The notes beneath the pieces are model-generated. The model saw only the letters and a list, made by a program, of their open reading frames with translations. It made no database searches and was not told the DNA's origin. From IMG/VR virus record IMGVR_UViG_3300018080_000105, positions 64,001-128,000 of that record: a DNA stretch of 64,000 bases; one strand, written 5' to 3'. Of the stretch, positions 1,645-53,227 are shown one piece after another. Each line of letters begins with the position of its first letter. Position 1 is the stretch's first letter. The position numbers were made by a program, and so were the translations under genes. This stretch comes from a virus.

Positions 1645-2643
1645 TCAAAGCCTGGCGTACGAGTATTCCGGGGTCTCCGACCGGCGGAGTTCAGGTAGAT
1701 ACGTCAGACATGCGTCTTCAACCGCCTCCCGGAACATGCTGCCTCGGATCCACCAGGTATCGAGTCCCCGCAGGTACTCGTGTGCCTGAAGAATCCTCTT
1801 CTCAGTCAGCAGATCAGGAATCTGGCCGAATTCTTCATAAAATAGAGGGTAGTCTTTCCCAAGGTAGTATTCCGGACCTGGTTGACGATTGATACAGATG
1901 GGAGTTTCTCTTGCGATGCACTCCACAACCGTGTTATTCGCCACCGCGGCCAGCACTTCCATGAGAACGACGTTCTCCGACAAAAGCAAATCGTACTCGG
2001 TATCAGGCACAAAGTGCAAGGTATTCACCTTACCAACGGATTCCCGCCGCCCTGCACCTTTCCCGTAATAGTCACGGCAAAGATCCTGCGCGTGCGACGC
2101 CCAGTAAGAATTCGAGACTAAATGCGTTTTTTGAAGCCAAGCCGGCGTTTTCGCATGCTCGATTGCAGCGACGTTACGGAGAAACCACCCCACCTGCAGA
2201 ATCTGTCGAACAGAGTTTCTGCGGAAGCGATCCGGAGACCACCTCGCCAACGGTAAACCCGTCGGGTGACGGACGGCGACAGCCGGAACTTGCGGCCATT
2301 TCTGACGACACCAAGCGGCTTGCTCTTCGCTGAAACACAGTAGGAGCCGCAGCTGGGGCAAACTTTTGAGCCAACGCTGGTCGTTGTCCAGCCGCGAGAG
2401 GTGGAGTTTCTGAAAGTACCAATCCGGCATAGCAGGCGGATGGTGAAGAAAGCCAATCCACGGAGTACGGTGATAAAAACCTTCGTGCCAGTGTGCGTCG
2501 TACAGAAATGTTCTTTCAACGAAATCATCGAGCAGCACCTCCGCGTCCGCGTCCAGCAGCGGCGACAATGCTTCCAGACAATAGGGCCACCCACTCCGGT
2601 GCTCCCCGTCTCCAACCTTCTGCAGATCAACCAGCCTGAGCAC
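1645..2643 (-). CDS. Glycosyltransferase-like protein (GT-B-type C-terminus)
   Basis: HRSGWPY N-terminus; NNTVVECIARETPICIN resembles the GT-B donor-binding segment; cluster context. Confidence 0.5.
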   Translation of the reverse strand: MLRLVDLQKVGDGEHRSGWPYCLEALSPLLDADAEVLLDDFVERTFLYDAHWHEGFYHRTPWIGFLHHPPAMPDWYFQKLHLSRLDNDQRWLKSLPQLRLLLCFSEEQAAWCRQKWPQVPAVAVRHPTGLPLARWSPDRFRRNSVRQILQVGWFLRNVAAIEHAKTPAWLQKTHLVSNSYWASHAQDLCRDYYGKGAGRRESVGKVNTLHFVPDTEYDLLLSENVVLMEVLAAVANNTVVECIARETPICINRQPGPEYYLGKDYPLFYEEFGQIPDLLTEKRILQAHEYLRGLDTWWIRGSMFREAVEDACLTYLPELRRSETPEYSYARL

Positions 2644-3388
2644 GAAGATTCTCCACGATGTCGGCGTAAGTGGTCTTCAGCATGTTGTCCACGTACGCAC
2701 GCTCAACGTCATCAAGATTTCTCGCTCCAGATTTCCGCTTCATCACATGCTTCTCGGACCAAGTATTGTGCCCGTGGTAACAACGGAAATACATACACGC
2801 ATCGTTCCTCAGAATCTGCACTCCGATGTGCTCTCGCAGCGCCAAGATAAACTCTGTGTCTTCCGCTTTGCCTTTGCACGGGAATTCTACCCCGGAATCG
2901 GCAGGCCACAGCATTGTCCCGGGAAACCCCCTACAACGGATCTCCTGTCCGTCATTCACAAACGCCTGGCCTGTCTTCAGATTGCAGTGGATCTCGTGAC
3001 GAAAGATCGAACAGCCGCCAGGACTGGTCTGAATGACTTGATACGCCAAGCGATCAGGATGTGAGTAGTCGTCATCGTCCCATTGGACAATGTAATCGGT
3101 TTCGGCAAGCACGATCCCGATATTACGCAGCTCACCAAGTGTGTACTTTCTCTTGCCTTTGACCGGCTGATCTTCTGGCAACCCGATGCGGTACTCGATC
3201 ACGCCCTCGGGGCACTCGCCGTCAGCAAACAACGGCACGTCCGGGTGGTCATTGATCACCATCAACACCCGCTCACCGGGGTAGTTTTGGTTCTGCCAGG
3301 CTTCGACCGCCTTCATCGCCAACGGATATCTCGCTGACGTTTTCCCGGTCACCAGCACACCTGTCACGCTTGTCTCGTTCGGGTTCAT
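2627..3388 (-). CDS. Glycosyltransferase family 2 (GT-A)
   Basis: YIVQWDDDDYSHPDRLAYQ DxD motif. Confidence 0.8.
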   Translation of the reverse strand: MNPNETSVTGVLVTGKTSARYPLAMKAVEAWQNQNYPGERVLMVINDHPDVPLFADGECPEGVIEYRIGLPEDQPVKGKRKYTLGELRNIGIVLAETDYIVQWDDDDYSHPDRLAYQVIQTSPGGCSIFRHEIHCNLKTGQAFVNDGQEIRCRGFPGTMLWPADSGVEFPCKGKAEDTEFILALREHIGVQILRNDACMYFRCYHGHNTWSEKHVMKRKSGARNLDDVERAYVDNMLKTTYADIVENLRAQAG

Positions 3389-49180: not shown

Positions 49181-50698
49181 GTGCCATCTGCAGCGCCCAG
49201 ACGCCAAGAAACCCGTGACGAGAACCGCACCAGTCCCGCTGATCCTGCCCTGTTGAATGCTCCCGCTCCTGACGAGCCTTGGGCTCGTGTCTGGCCCGGA
49301 GAGCGGATCCTCGAAGGTGACATCTTCTACGACGTCACCGCTGGCGAGGAGTCTCAATGGAGGCTCTGTCCTGACGAGTGGGCTGCTCAGCCTGTTCCCT
49401 CTGCCGGGTACGCCATTGCCCGGCTATCCCCTCCCGATGGTTACCGTGGGCTGGAGGGCAGTGATGTCCTGCGAAGCCGAGACCTGGCCTGGAGTGGAGA
49501 GAAGTGGGTGCTGATCCGGGATACCATGCTCAGTGACTTCATCGATCGACCCTTCTCATATGTTGTCGAACGATGGGAGGCAGAGCACAACACCCGGCCT
49601 ATGGTCTGCACCCGTAAGAACCCTGCTGCCAACCAAGTCATTGAGATTCCCACGCATCACCGGAAGCTCTGGGCCAGTGAGGCCATCCGCCGAGGGGACA
49701 AGTACGTTGTCGGGGCCAGTGATATGGATGATTGGGCTGATGTGCCCGTCAGCATGCACGGCCTGATCGTCGAAGACCCTGAAGAATCCAACGATTTCGT
49801 GCGATACTGCCGGCCGGTCAGTCCCAATGCCCAGATCTGGTACGTAGACCCGCTGGCCGAAGAAGGAGGCGTCGGAGGTCGCCAGGATCCATTCAAATCA
49901 CTGGACCAGGCCAAACACACCATTTCAGTGGCTGCTGAGGCCGCTGGGACGCCTGCGTTCGGTATCATCCTCAGTGTCAGTGGCAAACCGCTGCTGGTCT
50001 ATGACCTACCCGAGCCAGAAGCCGAAGAACCTCCTGCTCCCGAACTGCCCGTTGAAGAGATTCCCGATCGGGAAGAATCGACGGCTGAGGCGATTATGGA
50101 GGACCCGGAAGCCCTCCCACAACCGGTCGGTGATCCCGATCGGGAAAAATCAGATGAAATCGAAGGGGGTTTGTATGACATGCTCCGGGAAGACTCAAAC
50201 AAAGACACGCCGACCACAGAAGACACGTCTTTAATGAAAGAGTCAGCGCAGCTTATCCAAAGTGACCTGGAAAGTGAGCCCGAGCTCGAACAGCTGTTTC
50301 AGGACGCCCGCCAACACGAAGACCAGAAAGTAGAAGAAATGCTCACCGGCACCTGTGAACAGATGGCCGCTCACCTGGAAGTGGGCATGAAGGTCGTCAT
50401 GGACCAGTCGGAACGTGTCCGGCCCCCGCAATACACCCGGACCAACGTGTCTGATGTCATCGAAAAGGGCGATCTGTGGTTCGGCCCGATCGATGGTGAC
50501 TTTGAAGTGCTGATGTGGCAGCCTGTTCCCGCTACGATGATCGGCCAAAAGGCGGGAGATCTCCTTGAATACCTGCTCGCCCGCAAACGGACAACCAAAG
50601 CCCGCCTGCCTGCAGAGATCCGCCAACAGGTGGTTCTGCGACTCGAAGAGATCCATACTGCGATGGATCAACTCAAAGACCTGCTGAACCTGGAGTAA
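49181..50698 (+). CDS. Acidic hypothetical protein with repeated short W-containing modules
   Basis: 505 aa; recurring LEG(D/S)/I.RGD...W.P modules. Confidence 0.7.
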   Translation: MPSAAPRRQETRDENRTSPADPALLNAPAPDEPWARVWPGERILEGDIFYDVTAGEESQWRLCPDEWAAQPVPSAGYAIARLSPPDGYRGLEGSDVLRSRDLAWSGEKWVLIRDTMLSDFIDRPFSYVVERWEAEHNTRPMVCTRKNPAANQVIEIPTHHRKLWASEAIRRGDKYVVGASDMDDWADVPVSMHGLIVEDPEESNDFVRYCRPVSPNAQIWYVDPLAEEGGVGGRQDPFKSLDQAKHTISVAAEAAGTPAFGIILSVSGKPLLVYDLPEPEAEEPPAPELPVEEIPDREESTAEAIMEDPEALPQPVGDPDREKSDEIEGGLYDMLREDSNKDTPTTEDTSLMKESAQLIQSDLESEPELEQLFQDARQHEDQKVEEMLTGTCEQMAAHLEVGMKVVMDQSERVRPPQYTRTNVSDVIEKGDLWFGPIDGDFEVLMWQPVPATMIGQKAGDLLEYLLARKRTTKARLPAEIRQQVVLRLEEIHTAMDQLKDLLNLE

Positions 50699-50701
50699 CC
50701 A

Positions 50702-51610
50702 ATGACCCGGCACATGGATATGCACGAAGGACCGCCGCCTCCACCCGACACCTACAACGTGGAGGCCTACTGCCACAACTGTGAATACGAAGGCGAAGCG
50801 GAAATCCCCAAAGGGACCAAGGTCGACGATGCCGACTGTCCTCGTTGTGGCTGTGATTGCCTGCAGGTCAAAGCCAAATTCACTGACGACCGTGTAGAAG
50901 CCGCACCCGCTGAAGAAGTTATCGAAGATTTTCTCCGCTGGCCGCCATCACAGCTCCGCGGCCCGATTAGCCCTGCGGGAGTCCCTGCCGATAACACTCC
51001 GCAGCCGCAGTGGTACTACTGCAACGACGACAGCACGCTACGCCATGCAGATCTGCAACCACCAACTGGCGACAGAACCTTTGCTGAAAGCATTCTGCGA
51101 GCAGCCGGCGGCACAATCCACCATCAGGTTCATCCGGATGGGCGGCACACGCTGAACGGGCGGGAAATCACACTTGACCAACTGAATACCGTCACCAGTG
51201 TTGATACGCCTCTTAGCGAGCGTGTCGGCATTCTAGGACAGATTGGTGTCATTCCGCCTGGTTCACAGACAAGCGGCGACGTTGTTGTCGGGCATTACCA
51301 CAACTCGCCACCACCGCCTCCACTGGGCAGAGGCCTCACTGCTGCGCCTATGGACGCTCACGGTGTTGACAACGTACCCTCGGGCGAAGGCACGCTCGCA
51401 GTAGGTTCTCCACAGGTACCGCCAGGGCTCCTGGACACCGCTACGATCGACACCACGACGCTCGACACATTGCTGTCACTTATTGACGAAGCGGCAGAGA
51501 TCGACCCAACCATGAGCGAGCCGAGTGTTGATCCTGACGAACCGGAACCCGTCAACACAGATCCACGACTGGGTGATCCTGATGGAGTACCCTGGGAAGA
51601 CTTTCGGTAA
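50702..51610 (+). CDS. Hypothetical protein with N-terminal zinc ribbon
   Basis: YCHNC...CPRCGC; GGAG SD; P/T/D-rich tail. Confidence 0.65.
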   Translation: MTRHMDMHEGPPPPPDTYNVEAYCHNCEYEGEAEIPKGTKVDDADCPRCGCDCLQVKAKFTDDRVEAAPAEEVIEDFLRWPPSQLRGPISPAGVPADNTPQPQWYYCNDDSTLRHADLQPPTGDRTFAESILRAAGGTIHHQVHPDGRHTLNGREITLDQLNTVTSVDTPLSERVGILGQIGVIPPGSQTSGDVVVGHYHNSPPPPPLGRGLTAAPMDAHGVDNVPSGEGTLAVGSPQVPPGLLDTATIDTTTLDTLLSLIDEAAEIDPTMSEPSVDPDEPEPVNTDPRLGDPDGVPWEDFR

Positions 51611-51618: not shown

Positions 51619-51621
51619 GAG

Positions 51622-51651
51622 GGGCGGCCCGGCACGGCCGCCCTGTTCTTT
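51622..51651. terminator. Terminator-like hairpin between convergent genes
   Basis: GGGCGGCC-CGGCAC-GGCCGCCC followed by TGTTCTTT. Confidence 0.65.
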
Positions 51652-51658
51652 CAGCAGG

Positions 51659-52315
51659 CTACGCCCACTCGACAACGCGGAACTTGCCGTAGCGACCACG
51701 CCAGGTTCCCAGGCCAACAGCGGTGCCACCTTCCTCGAAGATGTTCTTCACCTGCTGTTCCTGGATCTGATTGTTCGGCAGCAATGTCAGCTGGAACTCC
51801 AGAGCCCACGGCAGTGGCAGCACTGGTCGCACTTTGGGGTTAGGCACGCCGTCCTTCAACCGGGCGACGTTCCGCAGGATGTAGGCCCCTGTGGTGGGGC
51901 AGGTCTCCGTGTCCGGATCAAAGCCAGAAAACACCAGCGGCTCGTCATCACGCGTCAGTACCAGGTTCTCCCCGTGGCGGGGATCCGTCGACATGATCGA
52001 CACGAAGCTCCCGCACGCTTCCGTGAACTTCTTGTACTTCCGGGAGTCGAGCAGCCTCTTGGGTGCGGAGTCCGTATTCTTGGCGGAGAGGAAACTCATT
52101 ACGTTGTTCGACGGCAGTACGAGAGTACATCCGTCTGATGCGAAGTAGAATTTCTGTGATGGGGTCAACTTGGTGTCGTTGTCCCCGGGGTAACGATCGA
52201 ACATCAGAGGCGTCAGCCCCTCCAGTTTCACCGTTCTGCATACTACGTTCCTTGTGCCCGCTTCTGATCGGGTCGTTGGAGGTGTTGATGGAGTTGTTGG
52301 TGATACAGTCGACAT
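51659..52315 (-). CDS. vipr: Stand-alone Cas7/RAMP-like protein (Vipr-like RNA-guided effector)
   Basis: N-terminal strand VKLEGLTPLMF; LVLPSNNVMSFL; RP.LP.PW.LEFQL; C-terminal glycine-rich loop GGTAVGLGTWRGRYGKFRV typical of RAMPs. Adjacent to a GGY-NN array; no other cas genes in the window. Symbol assigned from recalled system architecture. Confidence 0.8.
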   Translation of the reverse strand: MSTVSPTTPSTPPTTRSEAGTRNVVCRTVKLEGLTPLMFDRYPGDNDTKLTPSQKFYFASDGCTLVLPSNNVMSFLSAKNTDSAPKRLLDSRKYKKFTEACGSFVSIMSTDPRHGENLVLTRDDEPLVFSGFDPDTETCPTTGAYILRNVARLKDGVPNPKVRPVLPLPWALEFQLTLLPNNQIQEQQVKNIFEEGGTAVGLGTWRGRYGKFRVVEWA

Positions 52316-52376: not shown

Positions 52377-52963
52377 TAACCATGCCTTTCCTCGCCATGA
52401 TGTGCCGACCATGGGTGAAAATGGTAGCCTTGCCTTGCCACGCCACGCCACTCCTCGCCCCGCCGGTCCTTGCCCTGCAGAGCCGCGCCGAGCCGTGATG
52501 ACTCAACGTAAAAGAACACGCGAGCCTTGCCTTGCCTTGCCACGCCCCGCCCAGCCTTTCCTTGCCTTGCAGAGCCGCGCCGAGCCGTGATGGCTCAATG
52601 TAAAAGAACATGCTTGCCTTGCCTTGCCACGCCCTGCCCAGCCTGTCCTTGCCCTGCAGAGCCGCGCCGAGCCGTGATGGCTCAATGTAAAAAACATGCT
52701 TGCCTTGCCATGCTATTCCGCGCCGTGCCCAGCCTTGCCGCGACTCGCCTTGCCGTGATGGCTCAACGTAAAAGAACATGCTTGCCTTGCCTTGCCGCTC
52801 CTTGCCTGGCCAGGCCATGCCTGTCCTCGCCTTACCCTGCAGAGCCCCGCCAGGCCATGCTGGCTCAACGTAAAAGAACATGCTTGCCTTGCCTTGCCCT
52901 TCCCTGCCACGCCCTGCCACTCCTCGCCTCTCCTTGCCATGCAGCGCCGTACCTAGCCGGGCC
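52377..52963 (-). ncRNA. GGY-NN pentamer guide array (VIPR-like vrRNA array): 6 full units + 1 short
   Basis: Tracts 52963-52884 (16 pentamers), 52856-52782 (15), 52754-52700 (11), 52673-52614 (12), 52586-52522 (13), 52494-52425 (14), 52396-52377 (4). Of 81 triplets: 62 GGC, 10 GGA, 5 TGC, 2 GGT, 1 GTC, 1 AGC. Confidence 0.85.
52495..52883 (-). repeat. Five copies of the array linker GC(A/G)TGTTCTTTTAC(G/A)TTGAG(C/T)CA(TCAC/GCAT)
   Basis: 52883-52857, 52781-52755, 52699-52674 (1-nt shorter), 52613-52587, 52521-52495. Confidence 0.9.
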
Positions 52964-53138: not shown

Positions 53139-53227
53139 TGCCTCGGCCAGTCCTGGCCTTGCATCAGCGTTGAATACGAATGGTGGCGCAGACGGATAGA
53201 TCGAAATCAGGTCCTCCTTTCAGTGAA

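What the first reader, a model, noticed from the sequence alone, without database searches (positions are those of the whole stretch)
52425..52963. Decoded guide content shows recent duplication and NN-only diversification
NN strings (5'->3', - strand): g1 CC TA AC GC AT AA GA GA GT AG GT AG AG AA AA AA; g2 CT GG TC AG AA GA CA AT CT CA AA GC AA AA AA; g3 AA GA GC AA TG AC GC AT AT AA AA; g4 TC GC TC AG AA CA TG AG GT AA AA AA; g5 TC GC TC AA AA AA TG GG GT AA AA AA TC; g6 TC GC TC AG AA CC GG GA GT GT GT AA AA TA. g4-g6 share the start TC GC TC A(G/A) AA and the same non-canonical triplets (TGC at position 4, GGA at position 6), so they are duplicates. g4 vs g5 differ only in NN positions plus one added pentamer. 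Inference: guides are reprogrammed by point mutation and pentamer slippage rather than by spacer acquisition. The AA-AA tail may be structural.
Basis: partly seen in the sequence, partly recalled or inferred. Interest (0 to 1): 0.8.

Follow-up and report, generated by a model that had tools for sequence, protein, structure and literature searches.

The report
Duplicated phage VIPR guide RNAs
The six five-base-periodic repeats are guide-RNA genes of a phage VIPR system, a CRISPR-like system described in 2026. Three of them are recent copies of one another that differ almost only at the two "reading" bases of each five-base unit, which hints at how such guides change over time.

Summary
They are the only such tracts in the 184-kb phage contig, and 551 kb of control DNA had none.

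This is a VIPR locus, a known kind (bioRxiv 10.64898/2026.04.26.720920). The adjacent 218-aa gene folds as a Cas7-type RAMP. In the whole PDB it matches only the SUSP1 Vipr protein. This scan has already met VIPR arrays on several other genomes.

g4, g5 and g6 are true paralogues (97% and 93% identity to g4; shuffle p<0.0005).

- In relatives, substitutions in tracts fall on NN, and 12 of 12 in-tract indels are multiples of 5, against 3 of 56 in flanks.
- Internal duplication of guide content runs at ten times the shuffled level.
- The AA-AA 3' end is conserved across the clade.
- "NN-only" overstates it: the g4 and g5 linkers differ at 3 of 27 positions.
- Single-pentamer slippage leaves no family-wide signature; larger in-register deletions between internal repeats do.
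- Some relatives carry entirely different guides, so replacement by recombination is not excluded.
- No target was found, so "reprogramming" is unproven.

The parts
52884..52963 (-). vrRNA tract g1: 16 GGY-NN pentamers, the last three GGCAA
   Evidence: A contig from run X4, a related strain, has one N4 change (52955) and one extra GGCAA here.
52857..52883 (-). 27-nt linker/tail after g1 (GCATGTTCTTTTACGTTGAGCCAGCAT)
   Evidence: No Rfam family, including hammerhead, matched at E<=1.
52782..52856 (-). vrRNA tract g2: 15 pentamers; shares TC-[TGC]AG-AA...[GGA]CA with g4-g6
52755..52781 (-). 27-nt linker after g2
52700..52754 (-). vrRNA tract g3: 11 pentamers, the most degenerate triplets (GTC, GGA, AGC)
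52674..52699 (-). 26-nt linker after g3 (one base shorter; ACAT variant)
52614..52673 (-). vrRNA tract g4: 12 pentamers
52587..52613 (-). 27-nt linker after g4
52522..52586 (-). vrRNA tract g5: 13 pentamers. Paralogue of g4 with 3 NN changes, 0 GGY changes and one extra GGCTC unit.
52495..52521 (-). 27-nt linker after g5. Differs from the g4 linker at 3 positions, all transitions that keep the predicted pairs as wobble pairs.
52425..52494 (-). vrRNA tract g6: 14 pentamers. Paralogue of g4 with 5 NN changes and two extra pentamers (GT GT).
52377..52424 (-). Degenerate linker (28 nt) followed by a short remnant tract of 4 pentamers, in the leader of vipr
   Evidence: read directly
51659..52315 (-). 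vipr gene: 218 aa, RAMP fold
51621..51644 (.). GC-rich hairpin with T-runs on both strands. It is a likely bidirectional terminator closing the array-vipr unit and the converging plus-strand ORFs.

Best explanation
The region is the guide-RNA (vrRNA) array of a phage VIPR system. It is read from the minus strand together with, or just ahead of, the vipr gene at 52315-51659.

By homology with the SUSP1 system, each unit would give one RNA. One Vipr protomer would hold each GGY triplet and display the following NN for pairing with double-stranded DNA, skipping every third target base.

The array grew by tandem duplication of whole units of about 90 nt. g4, g5 and g6 are the youngest copies. g1 and g2 are older copies of the same ancestor.

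After duplication the copies diverged under one strong constraint: GGY and the 5-nt register must be kept. Substitutions therefore survive at NN and, less often and in pair-preserving form, in the linker. Indels survive only as whole pentamers. Such indels arise mostly by slippage or unequal recombination between internal repeats, and by copy-number change in the GGCAA run.

The two to three GGCAA units before each linker are a constant part of the RNA in this clade, not target-specifying.

Shown: the anatomy, the paralogy, the position bias, the register-keeping indels in relatives, and the conservation of the AA end.

Inferred: transcription, processing, DNA targeting, and that divergence yields new working specificities.
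For: VIPR membership:
- P0001 gives a confident model (pLDDT 88.6). It matches Cas7-family RAMPs (Cmr4, Csm3, type VII Cas7) at probability 1.0.
- P0001 alone (E 6e-4) and the family profile (E 9e-5) hit only 'SUSP1 Vipr protein' 36pp in the PDB. The match runs over the G-loop. The counterparts of R138, W178 and R179 are present (R163, W205, R206). My own read-off from the alignment places SUSP1 D177 opposite T204.
- 52 of 53 IMG/VR loci that encode a relative carry GGYNN tracts beside the gene on its strand. 0 of 16 control loci do.

Paralogy:
- g4-g5 are 97% and g4-g6 93% identical over linker plus tract, against 78-91% for other pairs.
- In the NN-order shuffle, 0 of 2000 shuffles reached the observed score for g4-g5 and for g4-g6; g5-g6 gave p=0.001.
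- The three share rare triplets (TGC, GGA) at the same units.

Position bias:
- Among g4-g6 there are about 8 NN events against 0-1 GGY events (binomial p about 0.009 for a 40:60 site ratio).
- Over the cleanly alignable comparisons (g4-g6, L001 paralogues, L030/L031, L028/L029 tract 2, the P0079 alleles, the X4 g1 variant) there are about 21 NN against 2 GGY changes.
- In all orthologous pairs, 53 of 57 tract substitutions fall on N4/N5 and 0 of 296 linker sites changed.

Register:
- In-tract indels are 5, 10, 15, 15, 20, 25, 25, 55, 70, 70, 70 and 115 nt. That is 12 of 12 multiples of 5, against 3 of 56 in flanks.
- Anchor-to-anchor intergenic lengths, which do not depend on alignment, differ by 15, 30 and 70 nt.

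Duplication is general: repeated 4-NN words number 40 observed against 4.0 in order-shuffled tracts over 46 loci.

AA end: 46 of 121 tracts have AA AA at units -3 and -2, against 1.4% expected from background.

Tempo: ten contigs with an identical Vipr have identical guides. L039/L041 have identical arrays at 6.4% flank divergence. This is not a hypermutation system.

No self-target exceeds the shuffled null, as the VIPR paper reports for its loci.
Against: - No RNA data exist for this phage, so expression and processing are untested.
- No target was found, so function of any guide, and any gain of new specificity, is unshown.
- Event counts within g4-g6 are small. NN (about 8 of 24 sites) against linker (about 4 of 27 sites) is not significantly different.
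- MAFFT tends to place gaps in register in periodic sequence.
- Some length alleles are single metagenomic contigs and could be assembly collapses. Their different junctions and accompanying NN changes argue against that.
- Some relatives show complete guide turnover that duplication plus point change does not obviously explain.
- No vap accessory gene was recognised here.
Confidence: 0.75

Rival explanations
1. Guide content is renewed mainly by import. Whole guides or array segments would be exchanged between related phages by homologous recombination, using the conserved tails, linkers and vipr as homology arms. In-situ mutation would play only a minor part. g4-g6 would then be a local exception.
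For: - L086 and L087 have identical upstream arrays and vipr 5' parts. From about position 1050 onward they are 6% diverged, and they carry different downstream guides of 17 and 14 pentamers.
- L035/L036 and L028/L029 tract 1 have unalignable NN strings next to near-identical tails, at 6-10% flank divergence. The tails show no substitution, but L028/L029 has a 4-nt linker indel.
- The October 2026 VIPR preprint speaks of outcomes changing 'by acquisition of a new vrRNA' and of loci being exchanged.
Against: - It does not explain the paralogy inside this array, or the ten-fold excess of internal NN-word repeats across loci.
- Frequent in-register indels scramble positional comparison. That alone can make diverged guides look unrelated.
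- The two alleles in L086/L087 still share an ordered subset of NN units (AA AC TC CA AG AC).
Confidence: 0.3
2. The similarity of g4-g6 is kept by selection, not by recency. The shared 5' units TC GC TC would be structural, pairing with the linker for processing, and/or the three guides would track allelic variants of one target site.
For: - RNAfold pairs GAGCC of the linker with GGCUC, the first pentamer of g4-g6. The C-to-T change in the g5 linker keeps the pair as G-U.
- The VIPR papers describe many guides converging on one target element.
Against: - g2 and g3 follow the same linker but do not start with GGCTC, so the hairpin is not a general feature of the array.
- Identity extends through the linkers and through rare non-canonical triplets. 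That points to common descent, not convergence.
- No target is known.
Confidence: 0.15
3. The region is a decaying, functionless micro- or minisatellite, or a repeat within a protein-coding ORF (the 248-codon open frame 52989-52243).
For: - An open frame spans the array.
- Tandem Repeats Finder-nt and 87-102-nt periods.
Against: - Variation follows a 5-nt grammar, not a 3-nt one, with GG nearly invariant.
- Tracts of this kind accompany the RAMP gene in 52 of 53 relatives and are absent from 551 kb of control DNA.
- Two of the three frames of the linker are open, and GGCNN rarely forms stop codons, so a long open frame is expected by composition.
Confidence: 0.03

Closest known systems
Type II VIPR system of Escherichia phage SUSP1 (Vipr + vap1 + vrRNA1-4; bioRxiv 10.64898/2026.04.26.720920 and .720927; PDB 36pp)
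   Same: - A small RAMP protein next to non-coding arrays.
- Guides of 9-16 pentamers with conserved GGY and variable NN.
- A constant sequence after each tract.
- Phage-borne.
- No self-target.
- G-loop residues W and R, and the thumb arginine, are conserved.
   Different: - Sequence similarity is confined to about 50 C-terminal residues (E 6e-4 to 9e-5).
- By my read-off of the alignment, the residue equivalent to D177 is T204.
- The inter-tract sequence is only 27 nt, with no evident pseudoknot.
- All six guides lie upstream of vipr.
- No vap gene was recognised.
- GGA triplets are common (10 of 81).
- Every guide ends in two or three GGCAA units.
- The VIPR type could not be assigned, because the paper's tables are not held.
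Staggered or continuous VIPR arrays (fig. S18 of the same preprint), as in relatives L003, L005, L010, L014 and L096
   Same: - The same Vipr clade (46-66% identity).
- The same pentamer grammar.
- Internal duplications of NN content.
   Different: Those tracts run on for 30-89 pentamers without linkers. The window has discrete units separated by a conserved 27-nt linker. I found that linker nowhere else in IMG/VR, JGI metagenomes or GTDB genomes.
CRISPR arrays with Cas7 (Csm3/Cmr4) backbones
   Same: - A RAMP fold that holds the guide periodically with flipped bases.
- An array of guide units beside the effector gene.
   Different: - There is no repeat-spacer structure.
- I saw no cas1 or cas2.
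- Guide units are paralogous to each other, not copied from targets.
- Periodicity is 5 (3 held, 2 read), not 6 (5 read, 1 flipped).
Minisatellite or contingency-locus dynamics (unequal recombination and slippage in tandem repeats)
   Same: - Length alleles that differ by whole repeat units.
- Deletions between internal imperfect repeats.
- Copy-number change in a homogeneous run (the GGCAA tail).
   Different: - Here the register is held by a protein-binding grammar.
- Arrays are stable across samples when the rest of the locus is identical, so this is not a high-frequency switch.

Membership tests
VIPR system | Vipr protein: a small RAMP (RRM core, G-loop, thumb) related to characterised Vipr proteins | tested here: met
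   - 218 aa.
- AF2 model with pLDDT 88.6.
- Foldseek probability 1.0 to Cmr4, Csm3 and type VII Cas7.
- The only PDB sequence hit is SUSP1 Vipr, E 6e-4 for the single protein and 9e-5 for the profile.
VIPR system | vrRNA genes: 9-16 tandem YNNGG/GGYNN repeats with conserved GGY and variable NN, next to vipr | tested here: met
   - Six tracts of 11-16 units.
- 64 of 81 triplets are GGY (my count).
- They lie on the same strand as vipr and end 109 nt upstream of its start codon.
- They are the only such tracts in the 184-kb contig.
VIPR system | An invariable 3' tail with conserved structure after each tract | tested here: inconclusive
   A 26-27-nt linker is conserved after g1-g5, and its substitutions keep two small predicted hairpins. 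There are only five copies and no relatives with this linker, g6 has a degenerate version, and no pseudoknot is evident.
VIPR system | An accessory vap gene in the locus | tested here: not met
   - A terminator-like hairpin follows vipr directly.
- The neighbouring ORFs have no Pfam, PHROG or PADLOC match and no counterpart beside vipr in relatives.
- By the paper's wording ('typically'), vap is typical and not universal.
VIPR system | vrRNAs are expressed, processed to about 100 nt and bound by Vipr | not testable with these tools
   No RNA run is listed for this sequence.
VIPR system | NN strings match natural DNA targets under the 1-nt skip rule (80% or more of NN) | tested here: inconclusive
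   - Nothing exceeds the shuffled null in the phage's own genome or in 513 kb of related loci.
- Exact gapped scans of IMG/VR gave 0 hits for g4 (9 units) and g2 (10 units).
- The 8-unit hits for g1 and g6 extend to only 72-75%.
- The search method needs exact runs, so real targets with mismatches would be missed.
CRISPR-Cas | Identical direct repeats separating unrelated spacers, with an adaptation module (cas1/cas2) | tested here: not met
   The variable parts are themselves pentamer repeats and are paralogous between units. None of the neighbouring ORFs scanned gave a Cas1/Cas2-type hit.

The most novel reading that the evidence does not exclude
VIPR guide repertoires need no acquisition machinery. 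New guides would arise the way new genes do. A whole guide unit duplicates. The copy is free to drift at NN while GGY and the register are held by the protein. Unequal recombination between internal repeats reshuffles blocks of pentamers.

On this reading g4, g5 and g6 are a snapshot of that process. g6 would be a nascent new specificity, four NN changes plus two added GT units away from g4. The invariant GGCAA units would be the loading or capping site where filament assembly starts.
Probability: 0.45. Interest if true: 0.55.

Novelty: new member of a known kind. Interest (0 to 1): 0.42.

Why it matters
VIPR was described only in 2026. By my full-text searches of the three preprints I could read, none says how its guides arise or change: 'slippage' and 'point mutation' never occur, and 'duplication' is used only for proteins.

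CRISPR copies spacers from targets. A 5-nt-per-3-nt code cannot be copied that way, so the source of new VIPR guides is a real open question.

This locus, with the population variants found here in relatives, gives a concrete and testable picture: duplication, NN change and in-register recombination under a GGY constraint. It also flags the conserved GGCAA end as a candidate constant element.

The locus itself is one more VIPR example and not a new kind of system.

Tried and rejected
- **Linker relatives.** I searched for arrays with the same linker in IMG/VR, JGI metagenomes and GTDB genomes. All hits were single chance matches with no tracts. No close orthologue of this particular array could therefore be aligned.
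- **Sequencing runs.** One search listed no RNA holder. Logan contigs of four DNA runs break inside the array. Only g1 of a related strain could be read: one N4 change and one extra GGCAA.
- **Self-targeting.** A sibling note (e1-5829621) read a 13-mer motif of the phage's own genome as matching guides 4-6. The best matches in the phage's own genome are 62-77% of NN, and none exceeds the highest value reached by shuffled guides. I therefore treat that reading as chance.
- **Targets among relatives' vipr genes and arrays.** Nothing exceeded the null.
- **Exact gapped scans of IMG/VR.** See the membership test. They gave no credible target.
- **Hammerhead or any other Rfam family in the linkers.** None at E<=1.
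- **Single-pentamer slippage as a family-wide signature.** Rejected. Identical neighbouring NN units are slightly depleted.
- **Hypermutation (DGR-like).** Rejected. Arrays are identical across ten samples, and no Pfam, PHROG or PADLOC scan of the neighbouring ORFs suggested a reverse transcriptase.
- **VIPR type assignment.** Not possible, because no supplementary tables are held.

Full report
**What is there**

On the minus strand, 52963-52425 holds six tracts of GGY-NN pentamers (16, 15, 11, 12, 13 and 14 units). A conserved 26-27-nt linker, GCATGTTCTTTTACGTTGAGCCATCAC and variants, separates them.

After g6 come a degenerate linker, a four-pentamer remnant, and then a 218-aa ORF (52315-51659). 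A GC-rich hairpin follows the ORF directly. It has T-runs on both strands, and two plus-strand ORFs converge on it.

A tract scanner finds exactly these six tracts in the window and in the whole 184,021-bp contig. It finds none in 550,878 bases of unrelated loci. The contig is a phage: a tubulin-family GTPase and a thymidylate kinase lie nearby, and nearly all genes are on one strand.

**What it is**

Literature search shows this grammar is that of VIPR systems (bioRxiv 10.64898/2026.04.26.720920.720927 and 2026.10.15.759431). In those systems:
- A small RAMP protein, Vipr, polymerises on a vrRNA of 9-16 YNNGG repeats followed by a constant tail.
- The protein sequesters each GGY and presents NN to pair with double-stranded DNA, skipping every third target base.

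Evidence that the 218-aa protein is a Vipr:
- No Pfam family matches.
- It hits 'SUSP1 Vipr protein' (PDB 36pp), and nothing else credible, at E 6e-4 alone and 9e-5 as a 30-sequence profile. The match runs over the G-loop.
- SUSP1's R138, W178 and R179, which hold G2 and Y3, have counterparts R163, W205 and R206. By my read-off of the alignment, D177 corresponds to T204.
- The AlphaFold model (pLDDT 88.6, pTM 0.82) matches Cas7-family backbone subunits (Cmr4, Csm3, type VII Cas7) at Foldseek probability 1.0.
- The protein has 617 homologues in metagenomic data.
- In IMG/VR, 52 of 53 loci encoding a relative carry GGYNN tracts right beside the gene on its strand. 0 of 16 control loci do.

I therefore file the locus as a VIPR system. 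No vap gene was recognised, and the type is unassigned. Earlier agents of this scan reached the same identification for arrays on several other genomes.

**The duplication claim**

- g4-g5 are 97% and g4-g6 93% identical over 5' linker plus tract. Other pairs lie at 78-91%, a high floor because GGC is constant.
- A pentamer-level alignment scored on NN only was compared with 2000 order-shuffles. For g4-g5 and g4-g6, 0 of 2000 shuffles reached the observed score; g5-g6 gave p=0.001.
- All three copies carry the rare triplets TGC at unit 4 and GGA at unit 6.
- g1 and g2 carry the same TGC...GGA run one unit out of register or with one insertion (p 0.003-0.005, helped by the common AA tail). The whole array except perhaps g3 therefore descends from one unit. 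g4-g6 are the latest copies.

**The 'NN-only' claim**

- Inside the tracts it holds. g4 against g5 shows 3 of 24 NN and 0 of 36 GGY differences. g4 against g6 shows 5 of 24 NN and 0-1 of 36 GGY.
- That makes about 8 NN events against 0-1 GGY events (binomial p about 0.009).
- The linkers of the same copies also differ: A-to-G, G-to-A and C-to-T changes plus a 1-nt deletion, about 4 events in 27 sites. This is about half the NN density and not significantly lower.
- All three linker substitutions are transitions that keep two small predicted hairpins as wobble pairs.
- The accurate statement is therefore: GGY and the register are constrained, and everything else drifts. Nothing in g4-g6 by itself requires positive selection on NN.

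No relative with the same linker exists in the collections I could scan. I therefore used orthologous and population pairs from the same Vipr clade.

1. *Eight near-identical IMG/VR pairs.*
   - Of 57 tract substitutions, 53 are at N4/N5, 4 at G1 or Y3 and 0 at G2.
   - 0 of 296 linker sites changed.
   - Flanks differ at 3.8%.
2. *Indel lengths.* In-tract indels are 10, 15, 20, 25, 25 and 55 nt. Of 56 flank indels, only 3 are multiples of 5.
3. *Ten contigs from different samples with exactly the same Vipr (P0003).* All have identical guides. L039/L041 have identical arrays at 6.4% flank divergence. There is no hypermutation.
4. *Contigs with exactly the same Vipr (P0079)*.
   - One long tract occurs in alleles of 46, 32, 32, 29 and 23 pentamers.
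   - The flanks are identical or differ at a single base.
   - The deletions are 70, 70, 70+15 and 115 nt.
   - The two 32-unit alleles result from crossover at different points between two imperfect internal copies of GC GT TC AT G(A/C) AA.
   - One or two NN changes accompany the other alleles, with no GGY change.
5. *A contig from run X4.* It is a strain about 93-96% identical in the adjacent intergenic DNA. Its g1 has one N4 change and one extra GGCAA.
6. *Internal duplication is general.* Identical strings of four consecutive NN occur 40 times, against 4.0 in order-shuffled tracts, over 46 dereplicated loci. Examples are the two guides of L001 (one NN change plus three pentamer indels) and L005.

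- *Single-unit slippage* should leave identical neighbours. Across 49 loci these are slightly depleted (145 against 171 +/- 11). Slippage is plausible for the GGCAA run and for GT GT GT in g6. The family-wide indel mode is block deletion or duplication in register.
- *'Rather than acquisition' is not shown.*
  - L035/L036 and L028/L029 tract 1 have unalignable NN strings beside near-identical tails at 6-10% flank divergence. The tails show no substitution, though L028/L029 has a 4-nt linker indel.
  - In the P0027 population, the alternative downstream guide sits in a segment that is 6% diverged from a breakpoint inside vipr. It came in by recombination.
  - Rapid scrambling by in-register indels could also produce unalignable guides. 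The two cannot be separated with this sample.
- *'Reprogrammed' implies new working targets.* I found no target for any guide.

**The AA tail**

All six guides end in two or three GGCAA units; g5 and g6 add GGCTC or GGCTA. Across the clade, 46 of 121 tracts have AA AA at units -3 and -2, against 1.4% expected. The last unit is AA, TA or CA in 60% of tracts, whatever the tail sequence that follows.

In SUSP1, filament completion and DNA unwinding start at the 3' end next to the tail. A constant 3' block could therefore serve as a loading or capping site and not be read. That is inference.

**Verdict**

The object is a new member of a known, very recently described kind. The evolutionary reading is a reasonable, partly supported hypothesis that the published VIPR work I could read does not address.

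Noticed in passing
window 49181-50698 (+) and 50702-51610 (+): Two long, abutting plus-strand ORFs (505 and 302 aa) run against the otherwise minus-strand genome. They converge on the hairpin just after vipr. Pfam, PHROG and PADLOC give no match, and relatives have no counterpart next to vipr.
   Followed up: partly
window 53138-52974 (-), perhaps starting further upstream near 53200: A small ORF lies behind a strong AAAGGAGG ribosome-binding site and ends 11 nt before g1. It is 54 aa from GTG, or about 80 aa if it starts at CTG or ATT. Nothing similar lies beside vipr in relatives.
   Followed up: partly
window 52495-52521 and 52587-52613 with the first pentamer of g4-g6: RNAfold pairs GAGCC of the linker with GGCUC, the first pentamer of g4, g5 and g6. 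The C-to-T change in the g5 linker keeps the pair as G-U. The conserved first NN (TC) may therefore be structural in these three guides only.
   Followed up: partly
IMG/VR loci L138, L139, L140, L143, L145: Read as codons, the eight central units of g6 spell S-(N/K)-P-G-(D/E)-V-V-V. Five of 14 exact IMG/VR hits fall in frame just before what I read, by eye and without a family scan, as the FxGxG motif of phage DNA methyltransferases. The full guide matches only 75% of NN, so this is a lead and not a target.
   Followed up: partly
L171 (Burkholderia phage vB_E436, PQ789831.1), locus 2366-2435 and 2462-3076: This is the only isolated phage in the GenBank set with this Vipr clade (52% identity). 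The gene is annotated as hypothetical. A 14-pentamer tract rich in GGA triplets lies just upstream and is not annotated.
   Followed up: partly
L096-L105 (contigs carrying protein P0079): The long downstream tract begins 11 nt inside the 3' end of vipr. Across samples it occurs in alleles of 46, 32, 29 and 23 pentamers, while the protein is identical.
   Followed up: yes
window linkers, e.g. 52870-52878 (-): The U-rich stretch UUCUUUU of each linker could, in the gapped NN-x register, pair with the preceding AA AA units of the same RNA. This was not tested, and other subclades keep the AA units without a U-run.
   Followed up: no
L034 (IMG/VR): This is the one Vipr-homologue locus of 53 in which my scanner found no tract. 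It may use degenerate triplets, as vB_E436 does.
   Followed up: no
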